A stretch of DNA of 64,000 nt from Candidatus Kapaibacterium sp. (GCA_025055755.1 JANWWF010000005.1:5585-69584); one strand, 5' to 3'; shown: positions 5,541 to 37,676, counted from the first letter of the stretch. The notes: a model not told the origin generated them from the sequence alone. A program made the numbers and translations.

Positions 5541-6710
5541 TTACCGCAAGCGGCTAAACGTCTTTGGATCGAATGCTTCGCGAATTGCCTCGCCAATAAA
5601 CACTACCAGCATAAGCGTCACAAACAAGGCACCCAGCGGCACCAGCACCAGCCACCAGTAGCCATTGGTAAGGTTATCCATACCAATGCTCACCATCTCT
5701 CCCCAACTGGGCGTCGGCGGAGCAAGTCCAAAGCCCAAAAAGTCCAAACTAACTAAGGCTCCAATATCGCCAACAATCGCGAAGGGGAAAAAGGTGATAA
5801 TCGGTACCAGCGAGTTCGGGAGAATATGCTTGAGAAGAATTTTTGGCGTCGGCACACCAATTGAGATTGCTGCTGCGGTGTAATCCCGAGCTTTCTCCCG
5901 ATAAAACTGCGCTCGCATCTGCTGCGCAATGCCAAGCCAAGAAAAGATAACCAACATCAACACCAGCACAAAGAAATTGGGGCGGACAATCGAGACTACG
6001 ATAATGATCAAAAACAGGAAGGGAAGCGAGCCCCAAATTTCCATAAAGCGCTGCATGAGCAAATCAAACCAGCGACCAAAGTACCCCATCAATGCCCCAA
6101 GAGGCACACCAATAAGGTACGACAGCGTCGCCACCAAAAGCGCAAAGGAAAACGAAATCTGGAATCCATACGCCATGCGCGCGAACACATCGCGCCCTCG
6201 ATCGTCGGTACCGAATAAACGCAGCTCTCCAAATTCAGTGCGGGACAGAGGCGGCATAAATGGCTCATTCCCCTCGACGGAAATGTCCTCGATAGGACCA
6301 AATGGATATAGCGGCATAATCACGTAATTGCCCTTGCCCTCCTGTTCATACTGGCGCTTGAGTGCGCGATAGTTGCATTCGCTTTTATTGCCCACCTGTC
6401 CCAGCTCTTCTCCCGAAATAAATGGCGTTCCGGCCAGCTGTCCCACAATCGGCAAATCGAGCAAATCGCGCACTGCAGGAAAATATGTTTTGCCATTGTA
6501 GTGGACTACCAAAGCACGGTTGTTGACTAACAGGGGCAAAAAGAATGATACTCCATACGCACCGAGCAAAATCAGCAGCGAATAGTAGCCACGCTTAAGC
6601 GAGCGGAATTTGCGCCACCGTCGCTGCTGGATGGAGAGGACTTCCTCACCACCTGCACCGTTTGCACTAACAGAAGGAGAGAGCGTTTCAACCTGTGCCA
6701 TCGAACTCAT
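5541..6710 (-). CDS. Peptide ABC transporter permease (OppC/YejE-like)
   Basis: RRWRKFRSLKRGYYSL N-terminus typical of YejE, FGTDDRGRDVFARMAYG, EAA-type loop ARDYTAAAISIG, LDFLGFGL..PTPSWG; start uncertain (6716/6710/6701). Confidence 0.9.
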   Translation of the reverse strand: MSSMAQVETLSPSVSANGAGGEEVLSIQQRRWRKFRSLKRGYYSLLILLGAYGVSFFLPLLVNNRALVVHYNGKTYFPAVRDLLDLPIVGQLAGTPFISGEELGQVGNKSECNYRALKRQYEQEGKGNYVIMPLYPFGPIEDISVEGNEPFMPPLSRTEFGELRLFGTDDRGRDVFARMAYGFQISFSFALLVATLSYLIGVPLGALMGYFGRWFDLLMQRFMEIWGSLPFLFLIIIVVSIVRPNFFVLVLMLVIFSWLGIAQQMRAQFYREKARDYTAAAISIGVPTPKILLKHILPNSLVPIITFFPFAIVGDIGALVSLDFLGFGLAPPTPSWGEMVSIGMDNLTNGYWWLVLVPLGALFVTLMLVVFIGEAIREAFDPKTFSRLR

Positions 6711-31785: not shown

Positions 31786-32829
31786 TTATTTCGGTTCGTT
31801 GGACTTACGAGACGAGGTTTTAGAGGATGTGGACGTTGTCGAGGATTTTGTTGCAGACTTTGTCGCTGTTTTCGCTGCAGCTTTTGTGGTCGTTTTCTTT
31901 GCTGGAGATTTGGCAGGTACTGTTTTGGCAGCCTCTTGCAATCGCTCTGCGACTGCGCGCCCGATATGGGCCGGAGACTCAACTACTGTCACACCTGCTG
32001 CATGGAGCGCTGCAACTTTTGCCTCGGCAGTTCCTTTGCCCCCGCTGATGATCGCTCCCGCATGCCCCATTCTACGTCCTGGGGGAGCAGTCCGCCCCGC
32101 GATGTACGCAATGACAGGCTTCCGCACATGAGCTGCAATGTATTCAGCGGCTTCTTCTTCGGCAGTTCCACCGATTTCGCCGATCAGCACAATTGCTTCC
32201 GTCTGAGAATCGGCATTGAATAGCTCCAGTGCATCCACAAAGCGCGTACCCACAATCGGATCGCCCCCGATACCGACACAGGTGCTTTGCCCAATACCCA
32301 AGCTGGTCAATTGCCACACTGCTTCGTAGGTCAGCGTTCCCGAGCGGGAAACAATCCCCACTGGTCCCGGTGTTGCGATAAAGCCAGGCATGATGCCAAT
32401 CTTGCACTCCCCAGGCGTGAGCAATCCCGGGCAGTTCGGTCCAACCAACCGCGAGCGTGAGCCGCGGAGCGCTGCCCACACCAAGCGCATGTCGCGGACG
32501 GGTATGCCCTCAGTGATCGCGACAATGAGGGGAACTTCCGCTTCGATTGCCTCCAGGATTGCATCGGCAGCCATGGGCGCAGGAACGAATATGCATGTCG
32601 CGTTCGCGCCCGTTGCTGCTACTGCCTCGCGGACCGTGTTGAACACAGGCACCTCGTAGGCAAAGGAATCTGCCCCCTTTCCCTGGTAAGAGGTTCCGCC
32701 TTTGCCGGGAGTAACTCCCCCCACAACGCGCGTTCCATACGCAATCATCTGGGCAGTGTGGAAGGTACCTTCCGAGCCAGTGATGCCCTGCACGATAAGC
32801 CGAGTTTGACTGTTACAGAGAATGCTCAT
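31786..32829 (-). CDS. sucD: Succinate--CoA ligase alpha subunit with 48-aa basic C-terminal tail
   Basis: [59 protein letters not shown]. Confidence 0.96.
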
Positions 32830-32953
32830 AACCGCATGCACGCAGTACAACTTTTTCAACAGGCTGCAAAGTTACGGCATTCGCCTATGCGATGAGAATC
32901 CAATCACTGCCAGCACGGTGTTATCAAGTCGAAAAACATCTCCTGCTCTGCGC

Positions 32954-32989
32954 AAAAAAGACGTGGCGCTGCTTTCTGCGCAGCGCCAC
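32954..32989 (-). terminator. Intrinsic terminator after the T9SS-cargo gene
   Basis: Minus strand GTGGCGCTGC-(7 nt)-GCAGCGCCAC perfect 10-bp stem then GTCTTTTTT. Confidence 0.7.
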
Positions 32990-33051: not shown

Positions 33052-34521
33052 TTACCGCTCAATAAGGACGGGCACAATCATACTGCGCGTCCCACGCTGT
33101 AGGCGCACAAAGTAGACGCCCCTGGCCACCGCCGGAATCGGTACTACATGCTCGCCGGCTGCTTTCCAGCCCTCGCAGAGCACCGCACAGCGACTGCCCC
33201 GAAGGTCGTACAGCTCCAGCGTGACATTTGTAGCTTCGTCAACAAAGAACCGGATGACTCCCTGCTCGACCGTCGGTGGGCTTTCCACCGAAGGTGTAGA
33301 AGTCACACTAACGGTTGTCGTGTCAAGCCGCCATGCAGCAATGTAGTTGACCCGCAGGTTGTTACTTCCAACTGTCGTAAAACCACCGCCAACGTACAAC
33401 CGCGATTGGTCTCTGCCAAATGCCGTCACTCTGCCACTGGTCCCAGACTCCAATGTATCCCATCGGGCAGTGGCAAAATCGTACACCGCAAGGTTACGGG
33501 CAGGAATTGTTCCCGCCGTGTCAAAACTGCCTCCGACGTACAACCGCTTCCCATCGGTATGCAGAGCAAACACCGCGTAGTACTTCACCGGGGACCGTGC
33601 CGTATCGCGCCATACGCCGCCGGCAAGCTCGCTCCACTGGTGTGTGCGGAGATTGTACACCGCAAGCGCACGAATACGCCCATGCTCACCCAGCGTCTCA
33701 AACTCTCCTCCCACAATCAGGCTATCGCCCACGCGGACAATAGCAGAAGGGGCTGCAACCACATCATCGGTCACTAAAAACCGCGCGCCGGGCACACTAT
33801 CCCATCGCTGAGTGCGAACATCATAGCGTGCCATCCCCTGTGCCGGGATACCGTCAACATGCGTGAAAAAGCCGATGACATAGAGGCTGCTATCTACCTT
33901 GAGCACCTTGCTAATTCCACCGCTTCTTACAACAGTATCTCTTCGTTCTTCGAAATTGCCGAGTGCCTGCCATGTGCGCGTTCGCAGATTGTACACTGCC
34001 ATTCCCGACATCGGAATGCCGTTGATGCTCCGGAAAGTCCCGCCAACGTAGAGCCGCTCCCCATCCAAATACAGATCAAAGACAGCGCCGCCCCATCCTG
34101 CAGCGCGGACGCTATCGGTTAGGCATTCCCACTGCTGCGTGCGGAGATTCCAAATTGCTAACCTGTCACATGGCGCCGTTCCTACACGCTCGAAACTACC
34201 ACCAACAAAAAGGAGAGTATCGCTCCCTTGTACTGCCAATCGCAAAGTTTGAACATTTGAGTTGACCGAGCCTCCGACATCATACCACCGCCGGTCTGCC
34301 CAGCTCCAGCGGGCAATCATCGATGCTGATACATTCCCCGCCCGTGTGAACACACCGCCAACGTACACATCGTTCCCTACCGGCACAATTGCCTCGATGG
34401 TCGGAACGGGGGAATACAGTCCATTCCCCAGCGCCTCCCACCGCGTCGTCTGAGCATGAGCAAAAGACGCAAGCACAAGCACCATGCTAAAACGAACACT
34501 CCAGAGCACATCGCTTTTCAT
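33052..34521 (-). CDS. T9SS-secreted 7-bladed beta-propeller (Rax2/kelch-like repeats) protein
   Basis: Signal peptide (..ASFAHAQ); 7 repeats L(Y/F/I)V(G/I)GxF...(A/L)xW/Y; CTD LELYDLRG...GVYFVRL; ATGA overlap with upstream gene. Confidence 0.8.
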   Translation of the reverse strand: MKSDVLWSVRFSMVLVLASFAHAQTTRWEALGNGLYSPVPTIEAIVPVGNDVYVGGVFTRAGNVSASMIARWSWADRRWYDVGGSVNSNVQTLRLAVQGSDTLLFVGGSFERVGTAPCDRLAIWNLRTQQWECLTDSVRAAGWGGAVFDLYLDGERLYVGGTFRSINGIPMSGMAVYNLRTRTWQALGNFEERRDTVVRSGGISKVLKVDSSLYVIGFFTHVDGIPAQGMARYDVRTQRWDSVPGARFLVTDDVVAAPSAIVRVGDSLIVGGEFETLGEHGRIRALAVYNLRTHQWSELAGGVWRDTARSPVKYYAVFALHTDGKRLYVGGSFDTAGTIPARNLAVYDFATARWDTLESGTSGRVTAFGRDQSRLYVGGGFTTVGSNNLRVNYIAAWRLDTTTVSVTSTPSVESPPTVEQGVIRFFVDEATNVTLELYDLRGSRCAVLCEGWKAAGEHVVPIPAVARGVYFVRLQRGTRSMIVPVLIER

Positions 34522-36308
34522 TGCTTCACCGTTCGAGATGGTGGCACATCCAGGGCATAGTACACCACGCTGGTCTTCCACGGTCCTTGGTAAAGTCCGG
34601 CAACAGACTTTCTCGCAGCATCCCAGACGATGTTAACAAGTTGCTGCTTCTTGTACTCGCGGGGCAGTTGCCATTCTCCCTTCAGCGTTTTCGTCTGCAG
34701 GTCATACTGCTGCACCACCCAAAAGCCGTAGTCATTATCACGCAGTGGGTGGCCCTGTTGCTTGATTTTCCAGAGCACCCACACATGCGCAGGGGTCAAA
34801 ATCACTCGCTTTATCTCCGCACCAGCAGAATCGAGAAGGTATTCTATCTCCTCCGCTGTCGGAGTTGTTTGCTTTTCCTCACGCTGCGCTGTGTCGAGCA
34901 TCGCTTTATTCCAGTAGTGACGCAGCGGTATTCGATCTCCATCGCTAAATTCAATTTCTATCCCCAGCCACTGCGCCCACGCACACCGCTCTCTTTCCGT
35001 ATCGCAACCAAGAATGTTTGAATCGTGTTCGAGAGAAAATCCGATTCCGTACTTTTTTCGGAGCTTGCTAAGAGAGCCGTAAGTATCCCCGAGAAAGCCA
35101 CCGCTCTCGAAACTGAATACACCAAAAAGTGGCGAAATGGTATAATACTCATCGGCAAAGGGATTGTCGTATGGATTGGCTGGAATTGTATCACCAGCTT
35201 CTATTCGCCCGCGGAAAAAGGGAAGGCAGAATTTGTCTTTGCTCGCGATAACTAATCCCTCTGAAGGTGAGAAGAATGCATTCCTATCCTGCACACATTC
35301 TCTACAATAGCTGGGTATGTACAAGTTGTCAATTTCAATGGAAGAAATAGGTGAGCACTGTGGCAATTGGTATCCGAGCAAATGATAGCTTTTCCATATC
35401 CCTGTAGCACTTGAGTCACGGCTCGGCCAGCGGCGGTATGATTGAACATAGTAGCTGACCTGAATAGTCCACAATACCGACTCATCATCAAATTGCGGGC
35501 GCAGTAGGGCACTGTGTAAGTACGGTTCTATATCCTTGTACGCCGAATCAGAAAGGAACCATGACAGCGCCCGGCTAACTACTTTGAACGGTCGTAAACA
35601 GCAAATCAGCTTCCCTGACAGTGCTTCATAAACGCAAACACTAAGATTAGTGCCATCCCACAAAGCCAACCATTTCCCACACGGCGAAATTACCGGATGC
35701 CATAGAAGACCTACCCCCGTTGTGCTGTCATCTTCCAATTCTACGACCTGGCTTATACGAGCATAGGGCCACTTGCCTTCCTGAATCCCTACCGACTGTG
35801 CATAAACTTGTGACTCAAAATTCGGCAAGAGCGGTTGGGAAGAAGCCGATAGCGAATCAAGGAAACGCTGTAGCAACGGACCTGTTGGAACACGCTCAAC
35901 GTGACTCCACCACCATAGTGCACCGGTGGAATCCCAAATTGTGAGTACCGGAAGATCTGAGCTTCTCAGCCCAACTGCTCGCAGCACAGCACCTGTTGAG
36001 TCAATGTACAAAGGGACGTTCCACCCCAGCGAACGCAGGTACGCAATCTCGCTATAGTAGCGCCTTATGCCTACAATCGCGGTTATAGATCCACTAAACT
36101 TTTGCTGCCTCAATTGCTCGATGAGCACTCCAATAAGCGCATCTCCTGCAGGAAATAGCCGCGGACGAGGCACGATAAACATTGCATGGAATCGTGCTCG
36201 CTCTGGTTGCTTTTGCAGGTAATTGCGGAAAAATTCGGACCTGACCCCCAGCTTAGAGCTTTGGGCTGCTACGGAGTAGCATAGGATGAACAACACTACT
36301 GCTGTCAT
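34518..36308 (-). CDS. Secreted hypothetical protein: thioredoxin-like domain lacking CxxC plus probable beta-propeller
   Basis: Signal peptide MTAVVLFILCYSVAAQ; VPLYIDSTGAVLRAVGL..DLPVLTIWDSTG redoxin-like; PVISPCGKWLALWD propeller-like blade. Confidence 0.6.
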   Translation of the reverse strand: MTAVVLFILCYSVAAQSSKLGVRSEFFRNYLQKQPERARFHAMFIVPRPRLFPAGDALIGVLIEQLRQQKFSGSITAIVGIRRYYSEIAYLRSLGWNVPLYIDSTGAVLRAVGLRSSDLPVLTIWDSTGALWWWSHVERVPTGPLLQRFLDSLSASSQPLLPNFESQVYAQSVGIQEGKWPYARISQVVELEDDSTTGVGLLWHPVISPCGKWLALWDGTNLSVCVYEALSGKLICCLRPFKVVSRALSWFLSDSAYKDIEPYLHSALLRPQFDDESVLWTIQVSYYVQSYRRWPSRDSSATGIWKSYHLLGYQLPQCSPISSIEIDNLYIPSYCRECVQDRNAFFSPSEGLVIASKDKFCLPFFRGRIEAGDTIPANPYDNPFADEYYTISPLFGVFSFESGGFLGDTYGSLSKLRKKYGIGFSLEHDSNILGCDTERERCAWAQWLGIEIEFSDGDRIPLRHYWNKAMLDTAQREEKQTTPTAEEIEYLLDSAGAEIKRVILTPAHVWVLWKIKQQGHPLRDNDYGFWVVQQYDLQTKTLKGEWQLPREYKKQQLVNIVWDAARKSVAGLYQGPWKTSVVYYALDVPPSRTVKQ

Positions 36309-36351
36309 TCTTGACCTATGTTTTTTCTTAAAACTATAACAAAAAGCAACC

Positions 36352-36654
36352 CTATGGTAAGTCAACGTACGCCTCGGTACCATCCGCGTTAGTCCCAAGT
36401 AAATGGCACGGAGATTGGAAGGTCAACTGTTCATCGTCGTACAACTGTAAATCATCAGGAAATTGGGGATTGGAGGGATAGACATTGCGAATGATAATCG
36501 CGCAGGGAGTTCGTGAGGGTCGTTCACAAATTACCGTTCCATCAGGACGGCATATTCCCTTCTTTCCGTAGAGGATGACTATCGGTATTCCATACGCCTC
36601 CGTGGCAGTTCCCAGAAGCATCACCACGAACAGTGATAAGACAGCCTTCCACAT
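36352..36654 (-). CDS. Small secreted 4-Cys protein (100 aa)
   Basis: Clear signal peptide MWKAVLSLFVVMLLGTATEAYG; mature part with 4 Cys; fills an otherwise empty gap, co-oriented with downstream genes. Confidence 0.65.
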   Translation of the reverse strand: MWKAVLSLFVVMLLGTATEAYGIPIVILYGKKGICRPDGTVICERPSRTPCAIIIRNVYPSNPQFPDDLQLYDDEQLTFQSPCHLLGTNADGTEAYVDLP

Positions 36655-36688
36655 AGCAATCACCTGAGTGGAACAACACCTTCCTTTT

Positions 36689-36805
36689 CGCTCTCCCCTG
36701 CAGGCGCGGCTGGTAATACAGCGCTGCAGTAGTGCCCTGGAAAGCGCCGCACACCTCTTCCCACTCACCACCACACCGTTGTATTACCACTGCAGGGAAG
36801 GAGCG
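36689..36805. other. Long imperfect inverted repeat / rod-like RNA hairpin
   Basis: TGGTAATACA(36711-20)/TGTATTACCA(36780-89) and CCCTGCAG/CTGCAGGG arms; further G-U pairing only on the minus strand. Confidence 0.6.
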
Positions 36806-36831: not shown

Positions 36832-36865
36832 AAAAAAAATTAACTCGCAGTAAAATCGAGATTAA
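36832..36865 (-). terminator. Probable intrinsic terminator after the NlpC/P60 gene
   Basis: TTAA-CTCG...CGAG-A-TTAA stem followed on minus strand by a run of T. Confidence 0.45.
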
Positions 36866-36923: not shown

Positions 36924-37676
36924 TCACCGCAACTCAGAACGCAGGGCAAGGTGCTGGAGGTCCCCAAGCGTCAAGCGGCGCCCGCCCAAGAAACGGGTGC
37001 GGTAGTACGTGCTCTCCAACGAGGAAATCGTCACCCCATAGCGCGAGCTGGCATGCGCAAAGAGATTATCGCCCAAATAGATGCCCACATGCGACACCCA
37101 CGCATGGCGACGGGTGTGGAAAAATACCAAATCGCCAAACTGGAGCTGGTCGGCTCGTTCGATAGGTTGCCCATACGCAAATTGCTCCTGTGCAGTACGC
37201 GGCAACAATGCCCCCGTGCACGTCCGAAAAAGCGCTTGCATAAATGCCGAGCAGTCGATTCCTTCTTCCGTCGTTCCCCCGAAGCGATAGGGACGTCCCA
37301 GCCACTCCATGACAAATTCCATCACTTTGCGGGGGGAAAGTCCCGAGGGAAGTTCTTCTCCCTCCAGAAATGCCATCCAGAGTGTTCGAATAGTGGCAAT
37401 ATCCACAGGGACATCGTCTTCGCGAGCGACTTCGTCAGCGTCATCACCATCGAGCACTTCCGGTTCACCACTGCGCAAGCCCGCCAGTTGCTGGAGCGAT
37501 GGAGAAGCCTGCGTTGCCAGAAGATTCATCGCCAGGCGCTTGCCTTCTTGCGTGCGGCAAAGCCGTCCACTAATGCGCCGCTTCGGGCTTTTCTTTTTTC
37601 CTGCCGCAAGCACTGGTTCTACTACCCCCATTCCAAAGAGCATTGCCACGACAATACAGAGCACAAACGGACGCAT
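36924..37676 (-). CDS. NlpC/P60 (C40) peptidoglycan endopeptidase, secreted
   Basis: WLGRPYRFGG, GIDCSAF (Cys), GDLVFF, SHVGIY (His), FAHAS; signal peptide from ATG 37676. Confidence 0.92.
   Translation of the reverse strand: MRPFVLCIVVAMLFGMGVVEPVLAAGKKKSPKRRISGRLCRTQEGKRLAMNLLATQASPSLQQLAGLRSGEPEVLDGDDADEVAREDDVPVDIATIRTLWMAFLEGEELPSGLSPRKVMEFVMEWLGRPYRFGGTTEEGIDCSAFMQALFRTCTGALLPRTAQEQFAYGQPIERADQLQFGDLVFFHTRRHAWVSHVGIYLGDNLFAHASSRYGVTISSLESTYYRTRFLGGRRLTLGDLQHLALRSELR

What the first reader, a model, noticed from the sequence alone, without database searches (positions are those of the whole stretch)
33052..36654. Self-contained secreted cassette: 4-Cys microprotein, redox-dead thioredoxin/propeller protein and T9SS propeller
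Seen: three co-oriented genes, all with signal peptides, between housekeeping-type genes (NlpC/P60 and sucD) and bounded by terminators at ~36832-36865 and 32954-32989. Gene 1 is 100 aa with 4 Cys in the mature part. Gene 2 has a redoxin-like stretch (VPLYIDSTGAV...LPVLTIWDSTG) but PRPRLFPAG where CxxC would sit, then a propeller-like region. Gene 3 overlaps gene 2 by ATGA and has 7 propeller repeats plus a T9SS CTD. 34.5-36.7 kb looks AT-richer than its flanks (by eye, not computed). Established: Bacteroidota have loci pairing small secreted proteins (e.g. NVEALA family) with beta-propeller proteins; this peptide has no NVEALA motif. Inference: an undescribed peptide-plus-receptor/chaperone system (signalling, antagonism or adhesion).
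Basis: partly seen in the sequence, partly recalled or inferred. Interest (0 to 1): 0.7.

Follow-up and report, generated by a model that had tools for sequence, protein, structure and literature searches.

The report
Cys-loop protein with dead-thioredoxin propeller partner
A hot-spring Kapabacteria genome carries a conserved, fast-evolving three-gene operon whose core is a previously undescribed pair, a small exported disulfide-loop protein and an exported thioredoxin-fold/beta-propeller protein that has lost its catalytic cysteines, followed by a type IX-secreted Kelch propeller; the anatomy is solid, but its function is only inferred.

Summary
Three co-oriented minus-strand genes lie between NlpC/P60 and sucD. 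They are g1 (36352-36654, 100 aa), g2 (34518-36308, 596 aa) and g3 (33052-34521, 489 aa, ATGA overlap with g2).

- **Family membership:** g1 and g2 match no Pfam, NCBIfam, PADLOC or PHROG family. An exhaustive HMMER search found a small g2 family of 29 clusters, and the members that carry an organism name are Kapabacteria/Chlorobiota MAGs.
- **g2 structure:** with that alignment AlphaFold gives a confident model (pLDDT 88) of an N-terminal thioredoxin fold packed on a 6-7-bladed beta-propeller.
- **Lost active site:** one clade keeps a true CPRC motif exactly where the window protein has F52-P-A-G55.
- **g1-g2 pairing:** a g1-family gene (invariant C-x6-9-C loop, usually followed by AII/AIV) lies directly upstream of g2 homologues in about 11 of 13 lineages. 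It occurs in tandem-duplicated pairs and as 2- or 4-unit fusions.
- **g3:** the Kelch/T9SS gene follows g2 only in the window clade, although other T9SS cargo genes often neighbour distant homologues.
- **Evolution:** the cassette is inherited vertically at one locus but evolves much faster than its flanks.

My best reading is that g1 is the periplasmic client or ligand of g2, ancestrally through thiol-disulfide exchange and here through binding only. That function is not shown.

The parts
36352..36654 (-). g1: 100-aa exported small protein, founding member of a new 'Cys-loop unit' family
   Evidence: ORF and translation. Homologues lie directly upstream of g2 homologues. Alignment A2 has G30, C43 and C51 invariant. 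No Pfam, NCBIfam or PDB match.
36589..36654 (-). g1 signal-peptide-like N-terminus (MWKAVLSLFVVMLLGTATEAYG)
   Evidence: Read from the sequence. The equivalent hydrophobic N-termini are conserved in homologues. No predictor was run.
36502..36528 (-). g1 conserved disulfide-loop motif C43-ERPSRTP-C51, followed by AIII
   Evidence: Both Cys are invariant in 10 family members. The same C-x6-9-C unit, usually followed by AII/AIV, is repeated 2x or 4x in L013, L022, L024 and L025.
34518..36308 (-). g2: 596-aa exported protein, thioredoxin fold plus beta-propeller, member of a rare family seen so far in Kapabacteria/Chlorobiota MAGs
   Evidence: HMMER against 1.84 billion representatives found 29 clusters. 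AF2 with alignment A1 gave pLDDT 87.8 and pTM 0.87. SNP pattern is 4 synonymous to 1 D/E.
35829..36251 (-). g2 N-terminal thioredoxin-like domain (about residues 20-160)
   Evidence: AF2 secondary structure is beta-alpha-beta-alpha-beta...beta-beta-alpha. Weak AhpC-TSA/Redoxin hits occur in family members. Two-domain Foldseek matches are SOQ1 7djk and NHLRC2 6gc1.
36141..36155 (-). Degenerate active site F52-P-A-G-D56 at the N-cap of helix alpha1, aligned to C-P-R-C-E in other family members
   Evidence: Alignment A1 and motif table. The helix starts at residue 53 in the model.
35922..35951 (-). Conserved cis-Pro-type loop P120-VLTIWDSTG129 of the thioredoxin fold
   Evidence: P120, T123, W125, D126 and G129 are invariant in the 9-sequence alignment A3, including members that lack Cys.
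34539..35771 (-). g2 beta-propeller (about residues 180-590, 6-7 blades)
   Evidence: AF2 strand pattern. Foldseek E 1e-9 to 1e-5 to WD40, YncE, QHNDH-beta, PON1 and NHL propellers, with TM no higher than 0.31 normalised by the query length.
33052..34521 (-). g3: 489-aa seven-repeat Kelch/Rax2-type propeller with T9SS type A C-terminal domain, start overlapping the g2 stop (ATGA)
   Evidence: Pfam Rax2 1.2e-34, Kelch_6 5e-17. Seven LYVGGxF anchors. Orthologues follow g2 in six lineages.
33055..33276 (-). g3 T9SS type A sorting domain (CTD)
   Evidence: TIGR04183 19.8 bits against cutoff 23. Orthologues score 27.5, 22.2 and 19.7. It is the only CTD in the 64-kb window by a custom HMM.
32963..32989 (-). 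Strong intrinsic terminator after g3
   Evidence: 10-bp stem, 8 GC, U-run. -22.5 kcal/mol, z -2.4.
36832..36865 (-). Weak hairpin plus U8 run after NlpC/P60; not a convincing terminator
   Evidence: -5.7 kcal/mol, z +0.78, 161 of 200 shuffles fold as well. Not found by the scan.
34750..36750 (.). Low-GC stretch (0.45-0.52) covering g1 and most of g2
   Evidence: Composition profile. Low GC of g2 is also seen in orthologues, 0.46-0.50 against 0.53-0.55 overall.

Best explanation
This is a vertically inherited, fast-evolving envelope operon, so far seen only in Kapabacteria/Chlorobiota MAGs. Its core is a two-protein module.

**g1** is a Sec-exported small protein. It is built from one 'G-x-G-G ... 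C-x6-9-C' disulfide-loop unit, usually followed by AII/AIV, plus a YPD..LYD tail.

**g2** is a Sec-exported protein in which a thioredoxin fold packs against a 6-7-bladed beta-propeller.

**Proposed mechanism.** g2 binds g1 in the periplasm as its dedicated client or ligand. In the clade that keeps CPRC at the thioredoxin active site, this probably involves thiol-disulfide exchange with the loop cysteines. In the window's clade both catalytic cysteines are replaced (F52-P-A-G55). There g2 would act as a redox-inactive binder or holder of g1, using the still-conserved cis-Pro surface and the propeller.

**g3** is a Kelch propeller with a T9SS type A sorting domain, translationally coupled to g2. 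It is a clade-specific third partner, likely the surface-exposed output.

**Shown:** the gene structures, the folds, the loss of CxxC, family membership, the g1-g2 linkage, the synteny and the evolutionary rates.

**Inferred:** the periplasmic location, the physical g1-g2 interaction, the redox chemistry and any link to T9SS.
For: **g1-g2 linkage.**
- A g1-family gene lies immediately upstream of the g2 homologue in L007, L008-11, L012/L019 (twice), L013, L015/L023, L016, L017, L018, L022/L025 and L024.
- An HMM built on 10 g1 sequences finds new members only next to g2 genes, and nowhere else in the window or the loci.
- The pair is tandemly duplicated as a unit in L019/L012.
- g1 paralogues flank g2 in L015.
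- 2- and 4-unit g1 fusions sit upstream of CPRC-type g2 genes.

**g2 fold.**
- The AF2 model has pLDDT 87.8 and pTM 0.87, with a thioredoxin fold plus a propeller.
- The only two-domain structural matches are SOQ1 and NHLRC2, which are thioredoxin-like plus NHL-propeller proteins.

**Active site.**
- CPRCEG in P0008, P0011, P0013, P0015 and P0030 aligns with window F52-P-A-G-D56.
- The sister clade has A-P-R-L-E, a clean replacement of both Cys.
- cis-Pro loop residues P120, T123, W125 and D126 are invariant even in members without Cys.

**Real, selected genes.**
- g2 SNPs are 4 synonymous to 1 D/E.
- The g1 Cys pair is invariant.

**Operon structure.** The g1-g2 gap is 43 nt, g2 and g3 overlap at ATGA, and a strong terminator follows only after g3.

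**T9SS link.** CTD proteins lie within 1-2 genes of g2 homologues in five separate clades, whereas g3 is the only CTD protein in the 64-kb window.
Against: - No direct evidence of interaction. No complex model could be run (structure jobs exhausted), and there are no transcript or proteome data.
- Two g2 lineages (L014, L021) have no detectable g1-like gene nearby.
- CxxC is confined to one nested clade in a midpoint-rooted NJ tree. An ancestral redox role therefore requires several independent losses and is not proven.
- Thioredoxin/redoxin sequence matches are all sub-threshold.
- Foldseek TM-scores are low (no higher than 0.31 by the query length), so the propeller resemblance is generic.
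- The g2 signal peptide is atypical if the annotated start is right.
- The T9SS association is not universal (L013 and L015 lack it).
Confidence: 0.4

Rival explanations
1. g2 is primarily a cargo-specific periplasmic helper for the neighbouring T9SS cargo (here the Kelch protein g3). It holds or presents the cargo before translocation, and g1 is a regulator or co-factor rather than the client.
For: - g2 and g3 are translationally coupled (ATGA).
- g3 orthologues follow g2 in six lineages.
- Unrelated CTD proteins neighbour g2 homologues in L014, L017, L021 and L012.
- CTD proteins are otherwise rare in the window, 1 in about 55 genes.
Against: - The partner conserved across the family is g1, not any cargo.
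- L013 and L015 have no adjacent CTD gene.
- The cargo types are unrelated (Kelch, BNR/Ycf48-like, unknown).
- No known T9SS component has this architecture.
- To my knowledge, type A CTD cargo are not known to need dedicated chaperones.
Confidence: 0.15
2. g2 is an enzyme whose active site lies on the propeller (a hydrolase, lactonase or lyase acting on an envelope or environmental substrate). g1 is an inhibitor, a activator or an unrelated co-secreted protein.
For: Foldseek hits include enzymatic propellers: PON1 1v04, hydrazine synthase 5c2v, and the amine dehydrogenase heavy and beta subunits 2h3x and 1jju. The latter enclose small Cys-rich subunits.
Against: - These are generic propeller matches, ranked among WD40 scaffolds, with TM no higher than 0.31 by the query length.
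- Among the 32 invariant positions in A3 there is no His, Cys, Glu, Lys or Arg, so no evident metal or catalytic set.
- No enzyme family is matched by sequence.
Confidence: 0.15
3. g2 of the window clade is still redox-active, using a different cysteine pair (C335-R-E-C338 in a propeller loop) that replaced the lost thioredoxin CxxC. g1 remains a thiol-disulfide substrate.
For: A Cys pair at this loop is present only in the window clade: CREC in the window protein, CQQC in P0003, CTDCFC in P0005. That is exactly where the thioredoxin CxxC is missing.
Against: - Spacing is not conserved (C-x4-C in P0004 and in the second L019 copy).
- The loop is the least confident part of the model (pLDDT below 50 at residues 333-341).
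- It is more simply a structural disulfide.
- Its position relative to the thioredoxin surface could not be examined.
Confidence: 0.1
4. The cassette is an antagonism or adhesion locus under diversifying selection. g1 would be a secreted effector or bacteriocin-like protein, and g2 (with or without g3) its immunity protein, receptor or surface display partner.
For: - The cassette genes are the fastest-evolving in the syntenic block: 42-55% identity against 68-91% for the flanks.
- The pair is duplicated and the unit number varies.
- The insertion spot between NlpC/P60 and sucD carries variable extra secreted Cys-rich and CTD proteins.
Against: - It is inherited vertically at one locus, with no mobility genes.
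- There are no toxin, immunity or defence family hits.
- g1 has no recognisable route beyond the periplasm (no CTD).
- Within-species variation in g2 is nearly all synonymous, and g1 is invariant.
Confidence: 0.1

Closest known systems
NHLRC2 / SOQ1 (thioredoxin-like domain + six-bladed NHL beta-propeller; PDB 6gc1, 7djk)
   Same: - An N-terminal thioredoxin-like domain packs directly against a beta-propeller.
- These are the only PDB entries that align over both g2 domains (613-646 columns).
- In NHLRC2 and SOQ1 the redox motif lies at the domain interface (PMC6107167; bioRxiv 10.1101/2021.03.16.435614).
- SOQ1 acts on a small protein, the lipocalin LCNP, in an extracytoplasmic compartment.
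   Different: - No detectable sequence homology, and no NHL repeats.
- The motif is CPRC or absent, not CC(I/V)NC.
[quoted passage not shown] - NHLRC2 homologues have no conserved operon partner (PMC6107167), whereas g2 has a dedicated co-encoded small protein.
- TM-score is only 0.25-0.30.
Periplasmic TlpA/ResA/redoxin-type thiol-disulfide oxidoreductases
   Same: - Secreted thioredoxin fold with a cis-Pro loop.
- CPxC-type motif in one clade of the family (CPRC).
- Weak AhpC-TSA/Redoxin profile hits.
   Different: - All sequence hits are below threshold.
- The window protein has no catalytic Cys.
- It is fused to a 400-residue propeller.
- It is coupled to a specific small Cys-loop protein rather than to cytochrome or copper-protein maturation genes.
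Bacteroidales NVEALA small proteins next to 6-bladed beta-propeller (DUF5128 / BF3164-type) proteins
   Same: A small signal-peptide protein is encoded next to a secreted beta-propeller protein in the FCB group, and its function is also unknown.
   Different: - No NVEALA motif or Pfam hit in g1.
- No DUF5128 or NCBIfam hit in g2.
- g2 has an extra thioredoxin domain.
- Different lineage (Kapabacteria).
Quinohemoprotein amine dehydrogenase / aromatic amine dehydrogenase (propeller subunit enclosing a small Cys-rich subunit; PDB 1jju, 2h3x)
   Same: A small Cys-containing protein is paired with a 7-bladed propeller. The propeller subunits appear among the Foldseek hits.
   Different: - No radical-SAM, protease or flavoprotein maturation genes and no cytochrome subunit nearby.
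- g1 has only 2 invariant Cys and no Trp/quinone signature.
- The structural match is generic.
T9SS type A cargo with Kelch propeller (g3 only)
   Same: Signal peptide, seven Kelch/Rax2-type repeats and a C-terminal TIGR04183-like sorting domain.
   Different: The CTD is divergent (below cutoff in the window copy). The protein is translationally coupled to a non-cargo gene.

Membership tests
NHLRC2/SOQ1 family | Thioredoxin-like domain immediately N-terminal to, and packed against, a beta-propeller | tested here: met
   AF2 model pTM 0.87. Foldseek two-domain alignments to 6gc1 and 7djk.
NHLRC2/SOQ1 family | Conserved CC(I/V)NC motif at the CxxC position (PMC6107167) | tested here: not met
   The window protein has F52-P-A-G55. 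Relatives have CPRC, APRLE and other variants.
NHLRC2/SOQ1 family | Six NHL repeats detectable by sequence | tested here: not met
   No NHL Pfam hit in g2 or in any of the 28 family members at E<=0.1.
NHLRC2/SOQ1 family | C-terminal beta-stranded domain after the propeller | tested here: not met
   The model ends with the last propeller blade at about residue 585 of 596.
TlpA/ResA/redoxin periplasmic oxidoreductases | Thioredoxin fold with cis-Pro loop | tested here: met
   AF2 topology. P120 is invariant.
TlpA/ResA/redoxin periplasmic oxidoreductases | Catalytic CxxC at the N-terminus of helix alpha1 | tested here: not met
   Absent in the window protein (FPAG). Present as CPRC in 5 of the family members aligned.
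TlpA/ResA/redoxin periplasmic oxidoreductases | Significant match to Pfam AhpC-TSA, Redoxin or Thioredoxin_8 | tested here: inconclusive
   Only sub-threshold hits. AhpC-TSA_2 E 0.073 for the window domain. AhpC-TSA best 0.0023 in 4 members and Redoxin 0.0091 in 2.
NVEALA + 6-bladed propeller loci of Bacteroidales | Small protein carries the NVEALA domain | tested here: not met
   No Pfam hit for g1 or for 10 family members at E<=1.
NVEALA + 6-bladed propeller loci of Bacteroidales | Partner matches the DUF5128/BF3164-type 6-bladed propeller models | tested here: not met
   No Pfam or NCBIfam hit for g2 at E<=1. None in family members.
T9SS type A cargo (g3) | C-terminal TIGR04183 / PF18962 sorting domain above cutoff | tested here: inconclusive
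   The window g3 scores 19.8 bits against cutoff 23, with Pfam E 0.074. Orthologue L018 scores 27.5 (pass), L020 22.2 and L019 19.7; L008 has no hit.
T9SS type A cargo (g3) | Actually exported by a T9SS present in the genome | not testable with these tools
   Only 64 kb of the genome is available and no machinery genes were examined. Several clear CTD proteins in related loci imply a T9SS in the lineage.
Kelch-type beta-propeller (g3) | Multiple Kelch repeats above Pfam thresholds | tested here: met
   Rax2 120 bits, Kelch_6 61.6 bits, Kelch_KLHDC2 59.9 bits. Seven repeat anchors.

The most novel reading that the evidence does not exclude
The g1 'Cys-loop unit' (G-x-G-G ... C-x6-9-C, usually followed by AII/AIV; 1, 2 or 4 copies) and the g2 thioredoxin-propeller protein form a new, dedicated substrate-oxidoreductase/adaptor system of the Kapabacteria envelope. 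The propeller docks the repeat unit and the thioredoxin site makes or holds its disulfide. Most lineages, including this one, would then have converted the enzyme into a redox-dead adaptor that couples g1 to T9SS-exported surface propellers.
Probability: 0.15. Interest if true: 0.65.

Novelty: new variant of a known kind. Interest (0 to 1): 0.45.

Why it matters
**What it would define.** If the g1-g2 interaction is real, it defines two new protein families: a repeatable disulfide-loop unit, and a thioredoxin-fold/propeller partner that matches no curated family.

**Why the family is a useful test case.** It offers a natural series running from catalytic (CPRC) to cysteine-free. That makes it a clean system for asking how thioredoxin-fold enzymes turn into non-catalytic binders.

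**Annotation value.** It would also give a first functional handle on a conserved envelope operon in Kapabacteria, an uncultured FCB lineage where these genes are all annotated 'hypothetical'. It may add a cargo-linked accessory module to the T9SS picture.

**If the interaction is not real.** Then this is one more lineage-specific set of secreted hypothetical proteins.

Tried and rejected
- **Word-indexed protein searches.** Searches with g1, g2 and the g2 alignment returned only the query itself. Only the exhaustive HMMER search found the family.
- **Single-sequence AF2 of g2.** It was useless (pLDDT 36) and cost one of the two structure jobs. No model of g1 or of a g1-g2 complex could therefore be made.
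- **The search for related loci.** It worked with 3-4 close sequences.
- **g1 as an orphan Kelch blade.** The idea was that g1 complements g3. It was prompted by a weak PDB-profile hit to designed Kelch proteins. hhalign of the g1 family against the g3 family gave probability 0.07, so I rejected it.
- **g1 as a relative of a g2 segment.** hhalign probability was 1%, so I rejected it.
- **Defence or phage origin.** No PADLOC or PHROG hit for g1 or g2.
- **Recent horizontal acquisition as the cause of low GC.** Rejected, because the cassette is orthologous at the same locus in relatives and g2 is low-GC in all of them.
- **RNA evidence.** No RNA runs hold the region. Only hot-spring DNA metagenomes do.
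- **PDB sequence searches.** Searches with g2, the g2 profile and the g1 profile gave nothing significant.
- **Literature.** A search found no T9SS component with a thioredoxin-plus-propeller architecture.

Full report
**1. What is in the sequence**

On the minus strand, the ORF listing and direct reading give three genes:
- g1: 36352-36654, ATG, 100 aa.
- g2: 34518-36308, ATG, 596 aa. The in-frame alternative starts ATG 36383 and TTG 36398 would overlap the end of g1.
- g3: 33052-34521, 489 aa. Its ATG overlaps the g2 TGA as ATGA.

The g1-g2 gap is 43 nt. Upstream lies an NlpC/P60 gene (36924-37748, PF00877 1.7e-28). Downstream lies sucD (31786-32859, NF004230 2.6e-136), followed by ndk and a NUDIX gene.

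A strong intrinsic terminator follows g3 (32963-32989; 10-bp stem, U-run; -22.5 kcal/mol, z -2.4).

GC falls to 0.45-0.52 across about 34750-36750, against 0.54-0.61 on both sides. The by-eye AT-richness is therefore real.

All three products begin with hydrophobic, signal-peptide-like segments. I judged this by reading them; no predictor was available.

g1 has Cys at 35, 43, 51 and 83.

g3 has seven LYVGGxF repeats, strong Kelch/Rax2 hits and a C-terminal match to the T9SS type A sorting domain that falls just under cutoff (19.8 vs 23 bits).

**2. Source and population data**

The exact g1 protein occurs on six contigs: four NCBI MAGs labelled 'Bacteroidota bacterium' and two Logan assemblies, all from hot-spring metagenomes. 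They are at least 99.3% identical to the window over 5 kb and have the same gene order.

Their few SNPs are informative:
- g2: 4 synonymous changes and 1 conservative D/E change.
- g3: 9 synonymous and 5 non-synonymous changes.
- g1: none.

g2 and g3 are therefore under purifying selection within the species.

Related loci found later are titled Candidatus Kapabacteria or Chlorobiota MAGs, and one family member is from 'Candidatus Kapaibacterium sp.'. The lineage is therefore Kapabacteria. This is inferred from the relatives' labels.

**3. g2 is a thioredoxin fold without cysteines, fused to a beta-propeller**

g2 matches nothing in Pfam or NCBIfam at E<=1 and nothing in PADLOC or PHROGs at E<=0.1. 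PDB sequences give nothing significant. The word-indexed search of 5.8 billion proteins found only the query itself.

The exhaustive HMMER scan of 1.84 billion cluster representatives found 29 family members, mostly full length at 574-642 aa, with 21-47% identity. Every member that carries a name is 'hypothetical protein'.

With their alignment (A1), AlphaFold2 went from pLDDT 36 (single sequence) to pLDDT 87.8 and pTM 0.87. The model has two parts:
- Residues about 20-160 have thioredoxin-fold topology.
- Residues about 180-590 form a beta-propeller of six or seven blades with insertions.

Foldseek against the PDB returns generic propellers, including WDR5, YncE, QHNDH beta, PON1 and hydrazine synthase. 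E-values run from 1e-9 to 1e-5, and TM normalised by the query length is no higher than 0.31. The only matches that span both domains are SOQ1 (7djk, 646 columns) and NHLRC2 (6gc1, 613-617 columns). Both are thioredoxin-like plus NHL-propeller proteins with the redox motif at the domain interface (PMC6107167; bioRxiv 10.1101/2021.03.16.435614).

Sub-threshold AhpC-TSA/Redoxin hits in several members agree with the fold.

The key point is the active site. At the N-cap of helix alpha1, five family members have C-P-R-C-E-G. Their sister clade has A-P-R-L-E. The window protein has F52-P-A-G-D56.

The cis-Pro-type loop (P120, T123, W125, D126, G129) is invariant even in members that lack Cys. This suggests that the surface is still used.

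None of the 32 invariant positions in the nine-sequence alignment is His, Cys, Glu, Lys or Arg. That argues for binding rather than catalysis.

**4. g1 is a real gene and the conserved partner of g2**

Context look-ups of g2 homologues show a small gene directly upstream in nearly every case. Translations show that these genes are homologous to g1.

In a ten-sequence alignment G30, C43 and C51 are invariant. The consensus is a signal peptide, then 'I-x-x-x-G-x-x-G', then a 'C-x6-9-C' loop usually followed by AII/AIV, then 'YPD...LYD(D/N)G'. The closest relatives end in 'EAYVxLP'.

An HMM built from these ten sequences was run on all ORFs of the window and of every locus. It hits only ORFs immediately beside g2-family genes. 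This includes loci not used to build it (L018, L019, L022-L025). Nothing else in roughly 300 kb scored better than E 0.03.

About 11 of 13 distinct g2 lineages have the partner. L014 and L021 do not.

Three further observations point to functional coupling:
- In Ca. Kapabacteria KatS3mg040 (L019) and L012 the pair is tandemly duplicated as a unit: g1a-g2a-g1b-g2b-Kelch-sucD.
- In L015 g1 paralogues flank g2.
- In the CPRC clade the g1 protein contains two units (L013) or four units (L022, L024, L025) of 'YCPxPxxxxCAIV'.

The g1 family has no Pfam hit and no significant PDB-profile hit.

**5. The third gene and the locus**

Orthologues of g3 follow g2 in six lineages of the window clade: the window species, L007, L008, L018, L019 and L020. 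All lie in the same NlpC/P60 ... sucD neighbourhood. The triplet is therefore inherited vertically.

The spot is variable. A DUF429 gene in L008, and Cys-rich secreted and CTD proteins in L012 and L018, are inserted beside the cassette.

In distant clades g3 is absent, but other T9SS cargo genes often lie within one or two genes of g2 (TIGR04183 scores):

| Locus | Neighbouring protein | TIGR04183 bits |
|---|---|---|
| L014 | BNR/Ycf48-like propeller | 34.4 |
| L021 | 358-aa protein | 32.3 |
| L012 | 262-aa protein | 30.1 |
| L017 | 294-aa protein | 16.4 (sub-threshold) |

g3 orthologues score 27.5 (L018, pass), 22.2 (L020) and 19.7 (L019). L008 has no hit.

By a custom CTD HMM, g3 is the only CTD protein in the whole 64-kb window. 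The recurrence therefore looks non-random, but this is a rough inference and the association is not universal (L013 and L015 lack it).

**6. Evolutionary rate and GC**

Between the window species and the L008 species the flanking proteins are 68-91% identical (PEPCK 91, NDK 89, SucD 86, NlpC 79). By contrast g1 is 47%, g2 is 42% and g3 is 55%.

g2 is low-GC in every species (0.46-0.50 against 0.53-0.55 overall).

The cassette is therefore old, syntenic and fast-evolving. It is not a recent insertion.

**7. Interpretation**

I propose that g1 is the dedicated periplasmic client or ligand of g2.

- **In the CPRC clade,** a CPxC-type site facing a partner with an invariant Cys pair suggests thiol-disulfide exchange.
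- **In the window clade,** both catalytic Cys are gone. g2 would be a redox-dead binder that uses the conserved cis-Pro surface and the propeller.
- **g3** is a clade-specific, translationally coupled T9SS output.

This is inference. No interaction, localisation or expression data exist, and I could not model the complex.

Rivals:
- A cargo-specific helper for neighbouring T9SS cargo.
- A propeller enzyme with g1 as a modulator.
- Retained redox activity through the window-clade-specific C335-x-x-C338 loop (pLDDT below 50).
- An antagonism or adhesion locus under diversifying selection.

I tested and rejected the ideas that g1 is a stray Kelch blade (hhalign probability 0.07) or is related to part of g2 (probability 1%).

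**8. Comparison with known systems and verdict**

- **NHLRC2/SOQ1.** The architecture works like these proteins, but g2 fails their defining sequence features. It has no CC(I/V)NC motif, no NHL repeats and no C-terminal domain. Unlike them it has a conserved operon partner (PMC6107167 reports none for NHLRC2 homologues).
- **NVEALA/DUF5128 loci.** It is not a member.
- **T9SS components.** No T9SS component with this architecture turned up in the literature search.

I rate it a new variant of a known kind: a thioredoxin-plus-propeller protein, here with a dedicated Cys-loop partner family and a natural series from catalytic to cysteine-free. Interest is moderate. The anatomy and the coupling are well supported, and the function is open.

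Noticed in passing
window 31786-31940 (3' end of sucD, minus strand); also L018, L019, L020: SucD carries a C-terminal tail of about 50 aa rich in Lys, Ala, Ser and Thr ('...[30 protein letters not shown]...RKSNEPK'). A similar tail is present in the Kapabacteria relatives. This is unusual for succinyl-CoA ligase alpha. It overlaps an upstream extension of the ndk ORF.
   Followed up: partly
window 37467-37500 (inside NlpC/P60): Within 34 bp there are nine substitutions and a 3-nt indel. Seven of the substitutions are synonymous, and the other two adjoin the indel. They separate the window and L001 from the other five otherwise >99% identical contigs. This looks like a small recombination tract or a hypervariable linker.
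   Followed up: no
window 35295-35306 (g2 residues C335-R-E-C338): A Cys pair in a low-confidence propeller loop is present only in the clade that lost the thioredoxin CxxC (CREC, CQQC, CTDCFC; C-x4-C in two others). It could be a structural disulfide or a relocated redox pair.
   Followed up: partly
window 36308-36398: The g2 start is ambiguous. The annotated ATG at 36308 gives a signal peptide with no basic n-region. The in-frame ATG 36383 or TTG 36398 would add 'KKKHRSR' but would overlap the end of g1. One MAG annotation (L003) calls a shorter 554-aa product.
   Followed up: partly
L019 5031-9698 and L012 7634-10307: Tandem duplication of the whole g1-g2 pair (g1a-g2a-g1b-g2b) ahead of the Kelch/CTD gene in Ca. 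Kapabacteria KatS3mg040. The two g2 copies are 35% and 44% identical to the window g2.
   Followed up: yes
L022 1036-1746, L025 1096-1815, L024 up to 1083, L013 4158-4625: g1-family proteins with four (or two) tandem 'G-x-G-G...YCPxPxxxxCAIV' units of about 42 aa each lie upstream of CPRC-type g2 genes. The g1 unit therefore behaves as a repeat module.
   Followed up: partly
L016 2501-4152: Downstream of the g2 homologue is a second g2-like paralogue with a lipoprotein-type signal (LLSAC). It appears split into two or three ORFs, which suggests a frameshift, a pseudogene or an assembly error.
   Followed up: no
L014 about 5650-5760: Where a g1 gene would be expected upstream of the g2 homologue there is instead a 4x tandem 21-nt repeat (translating as 'LPITNYQ') in AT-rich non-coding sequence. 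No g1-like ORF was detected.
   Followed up: no
L012 6041-7584; L018 5365-6871: Pairs of paralogous Cys-rich secreted proteins of about 250 aa ('...CPGGGYEW...DRNCDGVYDW...CDGS.C...'), at least one of them with a clear T9SS CTD, are inserted next to the cassette in some relatives. The NlpC/P60-sucD gap looks like a hot spot for secreted-protein genes.
   Followed up: no
window 33052-34521 (g3): g3 matches phage protein family phrog_5490 (unknown function) at 1.4e-27. It also matches a 'virion structural protein' family weakly. This is presumably shared Kelch-like repeats rather than phage origin.
   Followed up: no
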